Assembly: GCA_001000675.1 (NCBI GenBank)
Contig: LCHW01000001.1
Span: 360,875-424,874, forward strand
Direction: 5' to 3'
DNA: 64,000 nucleotides
Source: Candidatus Wolfebacteria bacterium GW2011_GWE2_44_13
GTDB taxonomy: Bacteria; Patescibacteriota; Minisyncoccia; UBA6257; UBA9933
In this document: piece after piece, positions 25,080 to 29,311 of the stretch
Layout: the number at the start of each line of letters is the position of its first letter
Numbering within the stretch: the first letter of the stretch is position 1
Translations under genes and position numbers: made by a program
The notes under the pieces: generated by a model
What the model saw: the letters and a program-made list of their open reading frames with translations, nothing else
The model's database searches: none
What the model was told of the DNA's origin: nothing

Positions 25080-25187
25080 ATAGTTGAATAATAAGAGTGT
25101 TTATTGTAAAAGGCAATTAAAAAAAGAGGGGTTTACAAAATAGACCATAATTTGCTACACTAACAAAACTGTGTTAACAGTATCTAC

Positions 25188-25261
25188 CGCGGGTTAGAGG
25201 AACGGTTACCTCGTAAGGCTCATAACCTTGAGAACTGGGTTCGACTCCCAGACCCGCAACA
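25188..25261 (+). tRNA. tRNA-Met (CAT); the acceptor features suggest initiator tRNA-fMet.
   Basis: 5' CGCGGGT pairs with 3' ACCCGCA, with a C1·A72 mismatch as in bacterial initiator tRNA. Anticodon loop CUCAUAA. T-arm CTGGG-TTCGACT-CCCAG. Confidence 0.65.
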
Positions 25262-25262
25262 T

Positions 25263-25301
25263 AAAAATAACAGCCACCTGTAAAAGGTGGCTGTTATTTT
25301 T
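25263..25301 (+). terminator. Intrinsic terminator.
   Basis: aaaaataacagccacc-tgtaaaa-ggtggctgttattttt. Confidence 0.55.
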
Positions 25302-25410
25302 ATGTTATGTCGGTGGGGAGAAGAAGGGTATTCTAAAAATATGAACTGCTTCATGTTTTTAGAAACCCCGGCGATGGGGGCGAAGCTTGTGCGAAGCGAC
25401 GGAGGAAGAG

Positions 25411-25428
25411 GACTCCCAGACCCGCAAC
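25411..25428 (+). repeat. 18-bp direct repeat of the tRNA-Met 3' end (att-like remnant).
   Basis: gactcccagacccgcaac is identical to 25243-25260, the T-arm 3' half plus acceptor 3' strand of the tRNA at 25188. Confidence 0.6.
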
Positions 25429-25440
25429 CACGTAAAAACG

Positions 25441-25474
25441 AAAAAGCACCCCGCTAGAGCGGGGTGCTTTTTCG
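25441..25474 (+). terminator. Intrinsic terminator.
   Basis: aaaaagcaccccgc-taga-gcggggtgctttttcg. Confidence 0.5.
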
Positions 25475-25508
25475 TTCACGCGACGAGCTGTAAAAAAAGC
25501 TATTTATT

Positions 25509-25854: not shown

Positions 25855-25859
25855 CATAG

Positions 25860-25893
25860 AAAAAGCGGCGACCTTCAGGTCGCCGCTTTTCGT
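25860..25893 (+). terminator. Intrinsic terminator.
   Basis: aaaaagcggcgacc-ttca-ggtcgccgcttttcg. Confidence 0.55.
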
Positions 25894-25905
25894 GACGGTC
25901 ACGAA

Positions 25906-26967
25906 TTAATACAGAAGGATTCGCGTTCCTTTGAACCGCGCGGACCTTTTGTCGAAGCAGTGATAGGCTTCGCCTGGATAGGCGATTGCGCCGTAGCCGT
26001 TCGAAGTATTAGTGCTACAGAACGGCGCACGTTTATTTTGCCAGCCTGCGTGCTCCTCTTGCTTGTGCAGGCCGAAATACAATTCGTGAGCTTTGTAGCC
26101 AGCATACTGCTTAGGTAGGTAGAATTGCCAGACAGCAATTTGTTCCTGCTCCTTTTTGGTAAAGCAGCGAAGAATGGTGGACTTTTTTGTGTAATAGGCA
26201 AACCCTAATCCCTTGCCCTCCACTTCTGTGGGCATTTTAGGATTATTGGGCAACAGGGCGCTCGTCTCAAATTTACGACATACTTCGTATTTCTTAGGAA
26301 GGCGTTTCTCTAACCCCCCTTCTAGCGGTTGATTGTAGCTCCGCAGCGTTCGAAGTAAATCCTCGCGGAATATAAGATCGCGGCTGCCGTATGCTCTTAG
26401 CACCAGCTCTTTTGGAACATCTTCGGCATTAAGCCATTGGGGTTCTGTTGGATGACTTTTTCCTAATACGGTAAGTGTGAGTTTTGGATTAAATATGACC
26501 AATGTGACTGGTACGGTTTTTGCAAGCGGATGAATTTCGCCAAGTATTCGATAGCCCGGATACGTAAGTGCCTTACGGATTTCGTACCCTGCAATCATAA
26601 ATCCATCGCGTTCTAATTGGGCAATCTTTCCTCTGATGATTGCCGTGGCATCAAGAAACTTTTTAAGTTCTTCTACTCCGCGGCTTGGTGCTTTCGGTAG
26701 GCCATCCGCCCCCTTCATTTCTGCGTCCAGTACGGCGAGAAAATCTCCACCACATCTTTCGCGAATGAATTTAAAATTGTCATCGCCGGCAATTACAACT
26801 AGCTTTTCCATTTGCTCATCCAAATCGATTACTTCAGGAATTCTGCTCATCGCCATCTCCTTTTGTGAGCGTCCTCTGAATGGTGCATTTCCCTGGAGAA
26901 ATGCGAGATATGTTCTTTGCGATGGACCGTCCATCGCAAAGCGTTCCCCTGGAGGAACCTTTTTCAA
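25906..26967 (-). CDS. Hypothetical protein in a tRNA-adjacent island; the start codon is uncertain.
   Basis: 353-aa ORF with several candidate starts and somewhat elevated GC. A possible PD-(D/E)xK-like motif (IAGDD ... LDAEMK) is speculative. Confidence 0.4.
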   Translation of the reverse strand: MKKVPPGERFAMDGPSQRTYLAFLQGNAPFRGRSQKEMAMSRIPEVIDLDEQMEKLVVIAGDDNFKFIRERCGGDFLAVLDAEMKGADGLPKAPSRGVEELKKFLDATAIIRGKIAQLERDGFMIAGYEIRKALTYPGYRILGEIHPLAKTVPVTLVIFNPKLTLTVLGKSHPTEPQWLNAEDVPKELVLRAYGSRDLIFREDLLRTLRSYNQPLEGGLEKRLPKKYEVCRKFETSALLPNNPKMPTEVEGKGLGFAYYTKKSTILRCFTKKEQEQIAVWQFYLPKQYAGYKAHELYFGLHKQEEHAGWQNKRAPFCSTNTSNGYGAIAYPGEAYHCFDKRSARFKGTRILLY

Positions 26968-27040
26968 GGTGCTACTGAGTTTCTAATTCAGTTTTAAACC
27001 GTTTTATAGTGGATGTCAACGTTTCTTTTATGCGGACTGA

Positions 27041-27970
27041 ATGGTATTTTATAGGAATATGGAAGTGGTGCTTTATTTTTTTGGTGGTCTTGCGGGTGTG
27101 TTGTTGGGGTTGTTTTTGTACACGCAAAATAAGGAGATTGGTGTGAGTGACTATACTATTGGGTTTGAAATATTGCCTGATGCGTTTAATGGATTCAGGA
27201 TTGTGCAGCTTTCTGATTTGCATAATAAGCGATTTGGGAAAAAGCAGCGGTATTTAATTGATTCCGTGCGGAGTGCTAAGCCCGATATTATTGTGATAAC
27301 CGGAGATATTATCGGGGACGGAATTTTTTATGATGCTGAGCCGGCGCTTGAGTTGGCGTGTGGGTTGCGCGATATTGCGCCCGTCTATTATGTAACAGGA
27401 AATCATGAGTGGGATTCGAAACAGTTTGCGACTTTGGGGAAACGGCTGGTTGAATGCGGCGTGCACATGCTCGACAATCGAGTGGAAACGCTTCCGCGGA
27501 AAAGCGAAATGATGGCAATTGCGGGGATTGACGATGCTGCACGGTATCGATCGGAATTTGAAAATGATGCGCCGCTTGATTCGCTTCGCAACCATACGGA
27601 ACGGGGGGCTGAAGAAATGCGTCGCGTCATCCGCCGTGAGCTCGACATAGTGCAGAGCGAAATGGAGAAGGGGGTATTTACGATATTGCTTGCGCACCGG
27701 CCGGAGTTTTTGAATACGTATGCACGCTATGGGGTTAACCTTGTTTTTTCTGGGCATGCGCATGGTGGGCAATGGAATATGCCGAACGTTGGTCCGCTTG
27801 TTGCTCCTGGACAAGGGCTGTTTCCGAAGTTGGTGGCTGGCGTGCATAGGCAGGGCAAAACGACCATGGTTATTAGCAGGGGAATTGGAAATAGTGGCAT
27901 TGCATTCCAGCGATTATTTAATAAACCAGAGGTGGTTGTTGTTGCGCTAAGAAGAGAAATTAAAAAATAA
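27041..27970 (+). CDS. Membrane-anchored calcineurin-like metallophosphoesterase (YkuE/YaeI-like).
   Basis: N-terminal TM segment, then the motifs LSDLHN, ITGDII, TGNHEW, LAHRPE and GHAHGGQ. Confidence 0.7.
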   Translation: MVFYRNMEVVLYFFGGLAGVLLGLFLYTQNKEIGVSDYTIGFEILPDAFNGFRIVQLSDLHNKRFGKKQRYLIDSVRSAKPDIIVITGDIIGDGIFYDAEPALELACGLRDIAPVYYVTGNHEWDSKQFATLGKRLVECGVHMLDNRVETLPRKSEMMAIAGIDDAARYRSEFENDAPLDSLRNHTERGAEEMRRVIRRELDIVQSEMEKGVFTILLAHRPEFLNTYARYGVNLVFSGHAHGGQWNMPNVGPLVAPGQGLFPKLVAGVHRQGKTTMVISRGIGNSGIAFQRLFNKPEVVVVALRREIKK

Positions 27971-28007
27971 AAAAGCCGCTCCCTGTTAGGGGGAGCGGTT
28001 TTGCTTT
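27969..28007. terminator. Bidirectional intrinsic terminator.
   Basis: aaaaagccgctccc-tgtta-gggggagcggttttgctttt between convergent genes. Confidence 0.55.
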
Positions 28008-29170
28008 TACCATCCCGCACGCACTGCGGATGTTACGCCGAGATTGTTGAGGATGTCTTTGAGTTCGTTGAGCGACTTTCGCCCAAAGTTTTGCGTCCGT
28101 AAGAGCTCACGCTCCGGTGTCGCCGCAAGCTGGCCGATGGTTTCGATCCCTTTCCACTTTAGGCAGTTTGCCGTCCGGACACTCATCTCCAGTGTTCCTA
28201 CGGGTCGATCGAAAATCGGGATGGATTCTAACTCCGCTGCGATACGGGCAAGCATCGCTTGCTCTGTCTCCACTGTTTCGTCAGGTGTGCTGCTTTGAGC
28301 AGGGGACCAATATATCGGTTCCAGTCTTATCAAGTGCTTGAGCTTCCCACTTCGCGATGGATGGCGCAACTTGCGAAGCGCCTTTGCTTCGATTTGTCGG
28401 ACACGCTCTTCTGAAACGCCACACACGCATCCAATCTGTTTGAGTGTTTGCCCTTGTTTCCCCGTGCCGATGCCGAAACGCATCCTCAGTATCTGCGCTT
28501 CGCGTTCTGTAAGCGTTTCGAGTACGGCCTCAATGTGTTGGGGCGTGTCCTTGGACCACATTGGTCCAATGGTTCCGTGCATTGCTTCAGCGAAGTATGC
28601 GATAAACCCTTTTTCCAGCCCATCGAGATTTTCTGGAAACGGAACATACCGCTCAATAGTGACGCCTGCATAGCGACCCTTGTCGCTTCGCTCCGTGTAG
28701 GCTGTGCCGACATTGGATAAATATTCTTTCCATATATCGACAGTATATCCTTCGTACGGGTAACGTTTTTCTCCGAATACTGCGCGTAGGAGTAGTGTGT
28801 ACCCGTGGTGTTCCGGCAGGTGTGATGGATAGGAGAGATTGTTCATAAGGACGTCTAACGGTTTGAACGTCGCGATGATGGAATCAATCTTGAGCCATTC
28901 GCCGAGCAACTTTTGTATTTCATGTGCTTCTGCACTCATGATGTTCCCGTGAGTGATGTAACTTTTCAGGACCTTCCGGAAAATCTGCACGTCGACATGC
29001 GGTCGACTTTCGCGTAGCTCGGGCGAGAGTTGTTTAGCATCATTTCTGACAGTGGCAAGACTTACCCCGAGTTTTTCGCTTATCCAGCTTACTGGAATGC
29101 CAAGCGGATATAGCGCCTTAATAGCCGTGAATCGTTCCGCTAGTTGCCTTGCATAAAACGGTCTTTTCAT
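28007..29170 (-). CDS. Chimeric protein: N-terminal HTH, an unknown middle domain, a sigma-70 (RpoD-type) region-4.2-like segment, and an RNA polymerase alpha-subunit CTD-like segment.
   Basis: LTEREAQILRMRFGI...SEERVRQIEAKALRKLRHPSRS is close to RpoD region 4.2. It is followed by LEMSVRTANCLKWKGIETIGQLAATPERELLRTQNFGRKSLNELKDILNNLG, close to the RpoA alpha-CTD helix-hairpin-helix. There is no sigma region 2. RBS gagagaggtg sits before the ATG. Confidence 0.6.
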   Translation of the reverse strand: MKRPFYARQLAERFTAIKALYPLGIPVSWISEKLGVSLATVRNDAKQLSPELRESRPHVDVQIFRKVLKSYITHGNIMSAEAHEIQKLLGEWLKIDSIIATFKPLDVLMNNLSYPSHLPEHHGYTLLLRAVFGEKRYPYEGYTVDIWKEYLSNVGTAYTERSDKGRYAGVTIERYVPFPENLDGLEKGFIAYFAEAMHGTIGPMWSKDTPQHIEAVLETLTEREAQILRMRFGIGTGKQGQTLKQIGCVCGVSEERVRQIEAKALRKLRHPSRSGKLKHLIRLEPIYWSPAQSSTPDETVETEQAMLARIAAELESIPIFDRPVGTLEMSVRTANCLKWKGIETIGQLAATPERELLRTQNFGRKSLNELKDILNNLGVTSAVRAGW

Positions 29171-29311
29171 TTTGGCACCTCTCTCGTTGTTAGAATTTTA
29201 TAATGTTGCTAAAAATAAAATATAACGAATTTATATTTTTGTCAAACAATTTTAAACTTGGTTTATGTGGCTTGCTGTTTATTTTTCCCTTCGCTTGTGG
29301 TATAAAAGGGC

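What the first reader, a model, noticed from the sequence alone, without database searches (positions are those of the whole stretch)
25150..29200. tRNA-Met integration hotspot with a duplicated tRNA 3' end and a three-gene island
The 18-bp 3' end of the initiator-like tRNA-Met (gactcccagacccgcaac, 25243-25260) is repeated exactly at 25411-25428, as in attL/attR scars from tRNA-targeting integrative elements. Within the following 4 kb lie a second CAT-anticodon tRNA, a copy of the 140-bp dispersed repeat, and several standalone terminators. After these come three genes with no obvious housekeeping linkage: an unknown 353-aa protein, a membrane metallophosphoesterase and the sigma-r4/alpha-CTD chimera. 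No integrase is present, so this looks like a decayed or streamlined island.
Basis: seen in the sequence. Interest (0 to 1): 0.6.

Follow-up and report, generated by a model that had tools for sequence, protein, structure and literature searches.

The report
Integration scar in initiator tRNA gene
A 168-bp piece of foreign DNA sits in the end of the initiator tRNA gene of a Wolfebacteria (CPR) genome, most likely the gutted remnant of an integrating element; the three genes downstream are not its cargo, although the stretch next to the scar is unusually variable between strains.

Summary
The 18-mer GACTCCCAGACCCGCAAC occurs exactly twice (25243-25260 and 25411-25428), far beyond chance. Comparison with other Wolfebacteria shows which copy is which. 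The second copy, with its encoded CCA and terminator, is the original tRNA-fMet 3' end. The first copy arrived with a 168-bp insertion that rebuilds the tRNA and supplies a new terminator.

This is the attL/attR layout of a tRNA-targeting integrative element, but only 150 bp lie between the repeats. There is no integrase, and no parent element was found. The scar is fixed in two strain haplotypes (nine assemblies) and absent from four other Wolfebacteria species.

The "three-gene island" reading fails:
- The genes lie outside the repeat-bounded interval.
- The order unknown gene - phosphoesterase - proS is conserved in other Wolfebacteria.
- Composition is unremarkable.
- Only the sigma-r4/alpha-CTD gene is lineage-specific.

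"Hotspot" holds in another sense. The spacer between the two CAT tRNAs differs in almost every lineage compared. From 11 bp past the scar, about 2.7 kb (second tRNA, unknown gene, phosphoesterase) is swapped for a very divergent allele in a sibling strain. That strain carries there a gene of an undescribed ~225-aa HTH family that always abuts tRNA genes.

The finding is ordinary at its core, with one useful side lead.

The parts
24543..25079 (-). C39-like cysteine peptidase gene (178 aa), just upstream of the tRNA promoter. It is found only in this species.
   Evidence: Pfam Peptidase_C39_2, E = 2e-11. No tblastn hit in L001, L002 or the other loci fetched by then. In L067 NlpC/P60 directly abuts the tRNA, and in L001 likewise.
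25132..25161 (+). Promoter-like site for tRNA-fMet (TTTACA, 18-nt spacer, TACACT, with TG before the -10).
   Evidence: Consensus scan. The block TTTACAAAA...TTTGCTAYACTAAC is conserved in L001 and L002 (alignment).
25188..25260 (+). Initiator tRNA-Met(CAT), rebuilt gene. Positions 1-56 come from the host; the last 18 nt were supplied by the insertion. It no longer encodes CCA.
   Evidence: ARAGORN and Rfam, 55.9 bits. C1xA72 and A11:U24 are read from the sequence. Its T-stem pair CTGGG/CCCAG is a compensated variant of CCGGG/CCCGG (L001, L002, L067) and CCAGG/CCTGG (L059).
25243..25260 (+). Repeat copy 1 (attL core): tRNA positions 57-74, running from the T-loop through the acceptor 3' strand and discriminator to C74.
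   Evidence: Exact 18-mer. It is followed by sequence found in no relative.
25261..25410 (+). 150 bp of insertion-specific DNA: a perfect terminator hairpin with a 21-bp stem (25258-25306, starting in the last 3 nt of the tRNA), a second hairpin with a 19-bp stem (25326-25369), then a G/A-rich tail holding a GCGAAGC direct repeat.
   Evidence: DNA fold -49.2 kcal/mol, z = -9.1. No similarity elsewhere in the window or in the loci fetched by then. No match in phage or plasmid collections or viral contigs. The ends are not inverted repeats of each other.
25411..25428 (+). Repeat copy 2 (attR core): the displaced original 3' end of tRNA-fMet, still followed by the encoded CCA (25428-25430).
   Evidence: Exact 18-mer. 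It is contiguous with the ancestral flank.
25429..25476 (+). Native downstream flank and native terminator of tRNA-fMet (CACGTAAAAAC, then a hairpin at 25437-25476).
   Evidence: Orthologous to L001 7813-7880 and L059 6602-6540.
25439..25440 (.). Left breakpoint of the strain-variable segment. Identity to sibling strain L107 is 100% up to 25439, apart from one C/T difference at 25431, then collapses.
25535..25673 (+). MITE-like dispersed repeat (~139 bp, imperfect terminal inverted repeats, strongly folding). It is inserted in the spacer and absent at this place in every relative and in the sibling strain.
   Evidence: Repeat families D3, D4 and D7. Alignment. RNA fold z = -4.96. No hits in the other genomes. 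Logan contigs L064 and L065 break inside it at 25644.
25783..25855 (+). Second tRNA(CAT); elongator Met or Ile2, not resolved. It is the same type as in L001, but a different tRNA from the one at this position in L002, L059, L067 and sibling strain L107.
25906..26856 (-). Unknown ~315-aa protein (the ORF extends to 26967 from a TTG). It belongs to a rare family confined to this syntenic position in Wolfebacteria and is hypervariable: only 49% identical to the sibling strain's copy.
   Evidence: Twelve homologues among 5.8 billion proteins. Synteny. No hit in Pfam, PHROGs, NCBIfam or PADLOC. AlphaFold2 pLDDT 65, and Foldseek against PDB found nothing significant. Identity values.
27041..27970 (+). 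Membrane metallophosphoesterase (YaeI/LpxG-like). It is syntenic in all Wolfebacteria compared, and only 63-64% identical to the sibling strain's copy.
   Evidence: Pfam Metallophos, E = 3e-14. NCBIfam YaeI/LpxG, below the curated cut-off. Synteny. Identity.
27976..27998 (.). Bidirectional terminator shared by the phosphoesterase gene and the sigma-like gene. It lies near the right end of the strain-variable segment (about 28100).
28007..29170 (-). 387-aa protein: N-terminal HTH plus an unknown region, then sigma70 region 4, then RNAP alpha-CTD. It is a lineage-specific gene between the phosphoesterase gene and proS. GC is 51% against about 43% for the backbone.
   Evidence: Pfam r4 E = 3e-20, alpha-CTD E = 3e-19. 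Absent between the phosphoesterase gene and proS in L002, L059, L060, L062 and L067. L001 has a 286-aa homologue (39% identity) with r4 but no alpha-CTD. It is 98% identical in the sibling strain. Composition.

Best explanation
The 18-bp repeat marks a 168-bp insertion into the 3' end of the initiator tRNA gene of a Candidatus Wolfebacteria genome.

Shown: copy 2 (25411-25428) is the original 3' end. It was pushed 168 bp downstream together with its encoded CCA and native terminator. Copy 1 (25243-25260) came with the inserted DNA. It completes a fully paired tRNA-fMet and is immediately followed by the insert's own strong terminator.

Inferred: an element carrying an attP with the T-loop-to-3'-end segment of this lineage's tRNA-fMet integrated by site-specific recombination, of the tyrosine-integrase type that uses the T-loop/acceptor sublocation. 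Nearly all of the element, including the integrase, was later deleted. What is left is a 150-bp, two-hairpin relic that now serves only as the tRNA's terminator. The event predates the split of two co-occurring strains and postdates divergence from the other Wolfebacteria sampled.

The three downstream genes are not cargo of this element. The unknown gene and the phosphoesterase gene are long-standing syntenic residents that undergo allelic replacement between lineages. The sigma-r4/alpha-CTD gene is a separate lineage-specific gain.
For: 1. Exact 18-mer, two copies only, none in shuffles.
2. Polarity. The sequence after copy 2 aligns with the sequence immediately after the intact tRNA-fMet in L001 and in L059/L061. 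The sequence after copy 1 aligns with nothing.
3. Empty site. L001, L002, L059, L061 and L067 each have one copy of the 18-mer, inside the tRNA.
4. The repeat covers tRNA positions 57-74, and the fragment lies downstream in the same orientation. This is the tDNA-plus-3'-fragment signature and the T-stem/T-loop site class used by tRNA-integrating islands (PMC4383910; 10.1101/2020.11.02.365908).
5. Both copies carry the lineage-specific CCCAG T-stem strand, which pairs with the host CTGGG. So the incoming att matched this lineage's tRNA exactly.
6. The rebuilt gene is complete and gets a ready-made terminator, as expected of an element built to restore its target.
7. It is real and fixed. The 168 bp is identical in nine independent assemblies from two strain haplotypes.
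8. In 1.36 Mb and 101 tRNAs of fetched DNA, the only other duplication of a tRNA end is in L119/L120.
Against: - There is no integrase gene or remnant.
- No parent element, attP junction or homologue of the 150 bp was found in viral contigs, phages, plasmids or the metagenome scan.
- 168 bp is far below the size of any known integrative element. Islander rejects candidates under 2 kb or without an integrase.
- The "integration then deletion" history is inferred; nothing observed shows it.
- The same spacer hosts nuclease-like selfish genes in relatives: a GIY-YIG pseudogene in L059 and an HTH-family gene in L107. A T4 GIY-YIG homing enzyme, SegB, is known to recognise the tRNA T-psi-C motif and cut near CCA (PMC2330249). 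A repair footprint after such a cut therefore cannot be excluded.
Confidence: 0.55

Rival explanations
1. Footprint of break repair. A selfish nuclease living in the tRNA spacer (the GIY-YIG type seen in L059, or the ~225-aa HTH family seen in the sibling strain) cut the tRNA-fMet gene in or near the T-loop or CCA. Repair copied 150 bp of filler or donor DNA and re-annealed on the tRNA 3' end, which duplicated 18 bp. No integrase was ever involved.
For: - A GIY-YIG pseudogene lies in the same spacer in L059/L061 (Pfam E = 2.4e-15).
- The HTH-family gene begins about 150 bp after the displaced fragment in L107.
- A second duplication of a tRNA-fMet end (a 5' fragment) lies next to another member of that family in L119/L120.
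- SegB of T4 recognises GGTTCRANTCC in tRNA genes, often cuts right after CCAR, and co-converts flanking DNA (PMC2330249).
- The sharp strain breakpoint 11 bp after ...CCAYGTAAAAAC, with about 2.7 kb of divergent DNA on the side of the HTH gene, looks like a co-conversion tract.
Against: - The duplicated block ends at the tRNA 3' end and the new copy is followed by a well-formed terminator. That looks designed rather than accidental.
- The window haplotype has the scar but no nuclease gene.
- The HTH family has no recognisable nuclease domain.
- L109 has the HTH gene and no duplication.
- The GIY-YIG copy is a pseudogene in a different species.
Confidence: 0.2
2. A still-mobilisable miniature element (CIME-like). 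The 168-bp unit keeps functional attL and attR and can be excised or re-integrated in trans by an integrase encoded elsewhere in the genome or by an infecting element.
For: The two 18-bp cores are intact and identical. CIMEs are defined as elements that lost their integration and transfer genes but keep attL and attR (PMC6323972). The insert is rich in inverted and direct repeats that could be protein-binding sites.
Against: No empty-site allele was seen in this species across nine assemblies from two haplotypes. There is no other copy of the 150 bp anywhere, no integrase in the 64-kb window and no circular-junction sequence in viral contigs. At 168 bp it is far smaller than described CIMEs.
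Confidence: 0.08
3. One reading: a decayed or streamlined three-gene island (unknown protein, phosphoesterase, sigma chimera) integrated at tRNA-Met.
For: The three genes are the fastest-evolving or most patchily distributed genes of the neighbourhood. The unknown gene and the phosphoesterase gene fall inside a strain-variable segment that starts 11 bp after attR. The sigma chimera is lineage-specific and mildly GC-rich.
Against: - The genes lie outside the attL-attR interval, and no further tRNA fragment bounds them.
- The phosphoesterase gene is at this position in every Wolfebacteria compared, and the unknown gene in five lineages.
- The sibling strain has the same genes as divergent alleles, not presence versus absence.
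- The sigma gene is outside the variable segment: it is 98% identical between the strains.
- There is no integrase.
Confidence: 0.03
4. Local tandem duplication of the tRNA 3' end plus flank, followed by divergence; or an assembly artefact.
For: Both flanks share the A-run, hairpin, T-run layout of a terminator.
Against: There is no significant similarity between 25261-25410 and 25429-25580, yet the 18-mers are 100% identical. That is incompatible with an old duplication. An artefact is excluded by nine independent assemblies made with different assemblers.
Confidence: 0.03

Closest known systems
tRNA-gene-targeting genomic islands and prophages with tyrosine integrases (the Islander signature: rebuilt tDNA plus displaced tDNA fragment)
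   Same: An intact tRNA, with its 3' fragment downstream in the same orientation. The fragment runs to the true 3' end. The identity block starts in the T-loop. Relatives show the empty site. The incoming DNA restores the gene.
   Different: Only 150 bp lie between the repeats, against 2-200 kb. There is no integrase, no cargo, and no identifiable parent element. The host is a CPR bacterium and the target is the initiator tRNA.
CIMEs (cis-mobilizable elements: attL and attR retained, integration and transfer genes lost; PMC6323972)
   Same: Lacks an integrase and is flanked by intact, identical att cores.
   Different: It is orders of magnitude smaller than described CIMEs. No cognate ICE or integrase is known, and there is no evidence of mobility, since the scar is fixed in all assemblies.
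Free-standing homing endonucleases in tRNA gene clusters, e.g. T4 SegB (GIY-YIG; PMC2330249)
   Same: Relatives carry a GIY-YIG (pseudo)gene or an HTH-family gene in the same tRNA spacer. The flanking DNA on one side is replaced by a divergent allele, as in co-conversion. SegB's target is the T-psi-C motif and CCA end, which is where the duplication and the strain breakpoint sit.
   Different: The window itself has no such gene. No nuclease activity or domain has been shown for the HTH family. Homing does not normally leave an 18-bp direct duplication.
MITEs (for the ~139-bp repeat at 25535-25673)
   Same: Short, multicopy, with imperfect terminal inverted repeats and strong folding. It lies in intergenic DNA, is species-specific, and breaks short-read assemblies.
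   Different: No clear target-site duplication and no parent transposase were identified. The 168-bp tRNA insert itself fails the MITE criteria, having no terminal inverted repeats.

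Membership tests
tRNA-targeting integrative element (Islander criteria, PMC4383910) | A full tDNA plus a cognate tDNA end-fragment on the correct side and in the same orientation | tested here: met
   tRNA-fMet at 25188-25260. The 3' fragment lies at 25411-25428, downstream on the same strand.
tRNA-targeting integrative element (Islander criteria, PMC4383910) | The fragment is terminal, reaching the tRNA end rather than being internal, and does not overlap a conserved CDS | tested here: met
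   It covers positions 57-74 and is followed by CA of the CCA. The only overlapping ORF (25387-25725, 112 aa) has no Pfam hit.
tRNA-targeting integrative element (Islander criteria, PMC4383910) | The displaced fragment is contiguous with the ancestral flank, and related genomes show the empty site | tested here: met
   L001 and L059/L061 have the tRNA directly followed by the flank found after copy 2. There is a single 18-mer in five relatives.
tRNA-targeting integrative element (Islander criteria, PMC4383910) | An integrase (tyrosine recombinase) gene between the att sites | tested here: not met
   The interval is 150 bp. No Pfam hit was found in six frames of 25261-25905, and none in neighbouring genes.
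tRNA-targeting integrative element (Islander criteria, PMC4383910) | Length of 2-200 kb with cargo genes | tested here: not met
   168 bp from repeat to repeat.
CIME (cis-mobilizable element) | Intact attL and attR without integration or transfer genes | tested here: met
   Identical 18-bp cores and no genes between them.
CIME (cis-mobilizable element) | A cognate integrase or ICE able to act on the sites; evidence of excision or mobilisation | tested here: inconclusive
   No integrase in the 64-kb window. No empty-site allele in nine assemblies. The rest of the genome and the raw reads were not available.
MITE / transposon insertion (for the 168-bp insert) | Terminal inverted repeats and a short target-site duplication; multiple copies | tested here: not met
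   The ends ATAAAAATAAC... and ...GGAGGAAGAG are not inverted repeats. It is a single copy.
Genomic island comprising the three downstream genes | Presence/absence polymorphism of the block as a unit, bounded by repeats, with atypical composition | tested here: not met
   The phosphoesterase gene is present in all relatives and the unknown gene in five. The three genes vary independently of one another. No bounding repeat exists. Tetranucleotide z ranges from -0.95 to 1.8.
LAGLIDADG homing endonuclease (for the 218-aa HTH protein of sibling strain L107) | Sequence or fold match to the LAGLIDADG alpha-beta-beta-alpha-beta-beta-alpha core | tested here: not met
   Pfam on 27 members returned only HTH families. 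A PDB profile search matched only an HTH. With an AlphaFold2 model of pLDDT 86.6, Foldseek against PDB gave a best E of 0.017 to IspF-like folds.

The most novel reading that the evidence does not exclude
The spacer between tRNA-fMet and the next CAT tRNA in Wolfebacteria/Paceibacteria, and tRNA arrays of some large phages, may be the dedicated niche of an undescribed family of ~225-aa proteins. These have a transposase/resolvase-like HTH plus an unassigned alpha/beta domain with invariant E, H, R, K and Y residues. They would act on tRNA-gene DNA as a homing nuclease or a small recombinase. On this reading, their activity rather than a classical integrase produced the tRNA-fMet end duplications seen here and in L119. 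It would also drive the co-conversion that makes the adjacent unknown-gene/phosphoesterase cassette hypervariable between strains.
Probability: 0.18. Interest if true: 0.65.

Novelty: new member of a known kind. Interest (0 to 1): 0.33.

Why it matters
At its core this is a textbook integration scar. It shows that CPR/Patescibacteria chromosomes, thought to be poor in mobile elements, have been hit by tRNA-targeting integrative DNA, even at the essential initiator tRNA. It also shows that such events can decay to a terminator-sized relic that island finders discard by design.

The work also corrects an attractive but wrong "island" call. The att geometry puts the element between the repeats, not after them.

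The more useful result is the map of a micro-hotspot. Within 5 kb lie an att scar, a MITE, two kinds of selfish-looking genes in relatives, a swap of one CAT tRNA for another, and a cassette whose alleles are 49-64% identical between strains that are 98-100% identical on either side. This gives concrete candidates for how streamlined episymbiont genomes generate diversity. The candidates are the unknown ~315-aa family, the membrane phosphoesterase, and the tRNA-associated HTH family.

Tried and rejected
1. Parent element or attP. Exact scans of viral contigs for both junctions, the bare 18-mer and two internal pieces of the insert all returned nothing. The one metagenome scan with the 18-mer gave 25 hits. 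All were chance matches in unrelated coding DNA, or tRNA-fMet genes of other phyla with unrelated flanks. blastn against phages and plasmids found nothing.
2. A structured RNA in the insert. The Rfam E-value scan of 25100-25950 found only the two tRNAs plus sub-threshold noise.
3. A third tRNA fragment that could bound the three genes: none.
5. My guess that the 218-aa HTH protein of the sibling strain is a LAGLIDADG enzyme was not supported. No homology to the N-terminus of the sigma chimera was found.
6. Compositional evidence for an island is weak. The largest z is 1.8, over the window spanning the 3' end of the phosphoesterase gene and most of the sigma-like gene.
7. Assembly artefact and tandem duplication were both rejected.
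8. Classifying the second CAT tRNA as elongator Met or Ile2 could not be done with these tools.

Full report
**1. What is in the sequence**

The 18-mer GACTCCCAGACCCGCAAC occurs at 25243-25260 and 25411-25428 and nowhere else in the 64-kb window, even with two mismatches. None of 100 shuffles gave a match. The first copy is the 3' end of a tRNA(CAT) at 25188-25260; a second tRNA(CAT) lies at 25783-25855. The first tRNA has a C1xA72 mismatch and an A11:U24 pair. These are read directly from the sequence and, by established knowledge of bacterial initiator tRNAs, make it tRNA-fMet.

The other items in the finding are also present:
- the ~140-bp dispersed repeat, at about 25535-25673;
- hairpin terminators at 25258-25306, 25437-25476, 25861-25890 and 27976-27998;
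- the three genes.

**2. Organism and comparators**

A proS-anchored scan of reference genomes places the window in Candidatus Wolfebacteria (Parcubacteria, CPR). The nearest reference species are L001 (RIFOXYD12_FULL_48_21, ProS 84%) and L002 (GW2011_GWB1_47_1, complete genome, 81%). Exact-protein look-ups added more Wolfebacteria contigs:
- L059-L062 and L067;
- independent assemblies of the window's own haplotype: L063/L097, L101, L102, L106;
- a sibling strain: L098/L107 (GCA_003508115.1), L099, L100, L103, L108.

ProS identities to the window are L107 99.5%, L062 86%, L001 84%, L002 81%, L059 78% and L067 61%.

**3. Which copy is the original**

The sequence after copy 2 (CCACGTAAAAACGAAAAA, a hairpin, then TTCACGCGACGAGCTGT) aligns with the sequence that directly follows the intact tRNA-fMet in L001 and in L059/L061. 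The sequence after copy 1 aligns with nothing. L001, L002, L059, L061 and L067 each carry a single 18-mer, inside the tRNA.

So copy 2 is the original 3' end, still carrying its encoded CCA. A 168-bp insertion displaced it. The insertion brought copy 1, which completes the tRNA. This is the "regenerated target plus displaced fragment" signature of tRNA-integrating islands (PMC4383910). The identity block spans tRNA positions 57-74, which corresponds to the T-loop/T-stem site class.

Both copies carry the lineage-specific CCCAG strand, which pairs with the host's CTGGG. Relatives have CCGGG/CCCGG or CCAGG/CCTGG instead. The incoming att therefore matched this lineage's tRNA exactly.

**4. Anatomy of the insert**

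The 150 unique bases consist of:
- a perfect terminator hairpin with a 21-bp stem, which begins in the last three bases of the tRNA (25258-25306);
- a second hairpin with a 19-bp stem (25326-25369);
- a G/A-rich tail with a GCGAAGC direct repeat.

The DNA fold has z = -9.1. The insert has no terminal inverted repeats, no credible ORF and no Rfam match. It has no homologue in the window or in the loci fetched by then, nor in phage or plasmid collections or viral contigs. Six-frame translation of 25261-25905 gives no integrase trace. The single metagenome scan with the 18-mer returned only chance matches and unrelated tRNA-fMet genes. The donor is unknown.

**5. Reality and age**

The 168-bp unit is identical in nine independent assemblies made with different pipelines, in both strain haplotypes. 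It is therefore not an artefact. It predates the strain split and postdates divergence from the other sampled species. No empty-site allele was seen within the species.

**6. The three genes are not the island**

In att geometry the element lies between the repeats. The genes lie downstream of attR, and no further tRNA fragment bounds them. Synteny settles the matter.

| Lineage | Order downstream of tRNA-fMet |
|---|---|
| L002 | tRNA2 - phosphoesterase - proS |
| L001 | tRNA2 - phosphoesterase - sigma-like gene (286 aa, no alpha-CTD) - proS |
| L059 | tRNA2 - unknown gene - phosphoesterase - proS - mreB (L060 matches over its shorter span; L061 reaches only the start of the phosphoesterase gene) |
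| L062 | unknown gene - phosphoesterase - proS - mreB (contig ends before the tRNAs) |
| L067 | tRNA2 - unknown gene - phosphoesterase - proS (contig ends in proS) |
| L107 (sibling strain) | HTH gene - tRNA2 - unknown gene - phosphoesterase - sigma chimera - proS - mreB |

- The phosphoesterase gene is universal at this position.
- The unknown gene belongs to a 12-member family among 5.8 billion proteins. In the five related lineages whose context was read it sits at this position; the most distant homologue (P0012, 36% identity, locus L058) lies in an unrelated context with no phosphoesterase or proS nearby.
- Only the sigma-r4/alpha-CTD gene is a lineage-specific addition. Its GC is 51% and GC3 54%, against about 42% and 39% for proS.
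- Tetranucleotide deviation across 25-29 kb ranges from z = -0.95 to 1.8, which is not an outlier.

**7. What is unusual about the neighbourhood**

The window and L107 are 100% identical from 24501 to 25439, apart from one C/T difference at 25431. That stretch covers the peptidase gene, the tRNA, the scar and the displaced fragment plus 11 bp. Identity then falls to 17-70% in most 100-bp bins until about 28100, broken by short near-identical patches (93% at 26901-27000, 96% at 27101-27200), and returns to 96-99%.

Protein identities between the two strains:

| Protein | Identity |
|---|---|
| Unknown gene product | 49% |
| Phosphoesterase | 63-64% |
| Sigma chimera | 98% |
| ProS | 99.5% |
| MreB | 100% |
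| NlpC/P60 | 100% |

The tree of the unknown gene disagrees with the backbone. Its closest allele (63%) is in L067, whose ProS is only 61% identical. The two strains even carry different CAT tRNAs as tRNA2.

This is allelic replacement of a syntenic cassette, not insertion of an island. Its left edge sits 11 bp past attR.

**8. The spacer as a landing pad**

The distance from tRNA-fMet to the next CAT tRNA differs widely.

| Lineage | Spacer | Content |
|---|---|---|
| L002, L067 | 23 nt | none |
| L001 | 148 nt | none identified |
| L059/L061 | 464 nt | GIY-YIG pseudogene (Pfam E = 2.4e-15) |
| Window | 522 nt | scar plus MITE-like repeat |
| L107 | 894 nt | scar plus a 218-aa HTH gene |

The 218-aa protein belongs to a family of more than 315 clusters in Patescibacteria. 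In every context examined, its stop codon lies within 10 nt of, or overlaps, the 5' end of a tRNA gene:
- L107;
- L109 (murG...efp context);
- L119 (bPH_2...UDG context);
- three phage contigs that share one locus (L121-L123).

In a 316-kb phage contig (L124), only an HTH-length fragment (residues 19-56) matches, lying between two tRNA-Glu genes about 10 nt from the downstream one.

An Islander-like scan of all 1.36 Mb and 101 tRNAs fetched found only one other tRNA-end duplication. It is a 5' fragment of tRNA-fMet in L119/L120, next to a member of this same family.

The family has a transposase/resolvase-like HTH. Its C-terminal domain has no Pfam or PDB sequence match, and a confident model (pLDDT 86.6) gave no significant Foldseek hit in the PDB. 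My LAGLIDADG guess was not supported.

**9. Mechanism**

Best supported (0.55): site-specific integration of an element whose attP carried the T-loop-to-3'-end segment of this lineage's tRNA-fMet, followed by deletion of everything except about 150 bp. The relic now acts as the tRNA's terminator.
- Shown: the insertion, its polarity, the empty sites in relatives, its fixation in the species, and the absence of an integrase.
- Inferred: the recombinase and the deletion.

Main rival (0.2): a nuclease living in the spacer cut the tRNA gene and repair left the duplication. T4 SegB is the precedent. It is a GIY-YIG enzyme encoded in a tRNA cluster that recognises the T-psi-C motif, often cuts after CCAR, and co-converts flanking DNA (PMC2330249). 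This rival would also explain the one-sided divergent tract. It explains less well why the new 3' end is complete and comes with its own terminator.

Minor rivals:
- a still-mobilisable CIME-like unit (0.08; definition in PMC6323972);
- the original three-gene-island model (0.03);
- tandem duplication or artefact (0.03).

**10. Verdict**

The scar is a new, very small member of a well-known kind, and it would be filtered out by island finders (under 2 kb, no integrase). It is of modest interest in itself.

Two side leads raise the value of the locus somewhat, but they lie mostly outside the finding as stated. They are the strain-hypervariable cassette of the unknown gene and the phosphoesterase, and the tRNA-associated HTH family.

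Noticed in passing
L107 8933-9589 (-), sibling strain at the place of window 25440-25782; also L109 2001-2696, L119 2501-3181, L121 1468-2172, L124 1501-1614: There is an undescribed ~225-aa protein family with an N-terminal transposase/resolvase-like HTH and an unassigned alpha/beta domain. It has more than 315 clusters in Patescibacteria and distant homologues in large phages. In all four contexts with a full-length gene, the gene ends 0-10 nt from, or overlapping, the 5' end of a tRNA gene; in the CPR genomes it sits between tRNA-fMet and a second CAT tRNA. In L124 only an HTH-length fragment lies between two tRNA-Glu genes. It may be a selfish gene specialised for tRNA arrays.
   Followed up: partly
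L119 2317-2333 (-) versus tRNA-fMet 2152-2223 (-); the same in L120: A duplicated, degenerate 5' fragment of tRNA-fMet, with a hairpin inserted in its D-arm region, lies 108 nt upstream of the intact gene. It sits between the tRNA and a member of the HTH family. Among 101 tRNAs scanned, it is the only tRNA-end duplication other than the one in the window.
   Followed up: partly
L059 about 6170-6440 (-), L061: A GIY-YIG domain gene (Pfam E = 2.4e-15), interrupted by a stop codon, occupies the tRNA-fMet to tRNA-Met spacer of another Wolfebacteria species. This recalls T4 segB in its tRNA cluster.
   Followed up: partly
window 25440-28100: The cassette of tRNA2, the unknown gene and the phosphoesterase gene is replaced by a very divergent allele in a sibling strain (49% and 63-64% aa identity, against 98-100% for the flanking genes). 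The unknown gene's nearest allele is in a distant species (L067). This suggests allelic exchange or diversifying selection. The unknown family has only 12 members in 5.8 billion proteins and a conserved C-terminal motif, FCSTN..GYGAIAYPGEAYHCFD...TRILL.
   Followed up: partly
window 28007-29170 (-): This protein combines an N-terminal HTH, an unknown region, sigma70 region 4 and an RNAP alpha-CTD. About a dozen other proteins with r4 plus alpha-CTD turned up in the homology search, in unrelated contexts; one sits beside a Gp49/HTH toxin-antitoxin pair. The L001 homologue (39% identity) has r4 but lacks the alpha-CTD, so the alpha-CTD seems to be a recent fusion.
   Followed up: partly
window 5418-5565, 25535-25673, about 49080-49200: A MITE-like ~139-bp repeat with imperfect terminal inverted repeats and a very stable fold (RNA z = -5). 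It is specific to this species. Logan short-read contigs break inside it at 25644.
   Followed up: partly
window 18153-21188: A 3-kb segment with two genes (590-aa DUF2339 membrane protein and 383-aa TSP_3-repeat protein) is absent from sibling strain L107. It is inserted just outside the terminator of tRNA-Leu(TAA), with no att-like repeat.
   Followed up: partly
window 24543-25079 (-): A C39-like cysteine peptidase gene lies between NlpC/P60 and the tRNA-fMet promoter only in this species. Relatives have NlpC/P60 directly next to the tRNA.
   Followed up: partly
window 12528-12614; 42001-43000; 43852-44912; 57990-58157: ARAGORN calls an 87-nt tRNA-Asp with the unusual anticodon ATC, which Rfam does not confirm at its gathering score. 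There is a 1-kb GC spike (59% against about 43%), four ~315-bp tandem repeats inside a long ORF, and a 12-nt-period Lys/Ala-rich coding repeat (AAKK-type).
   Followed up: no
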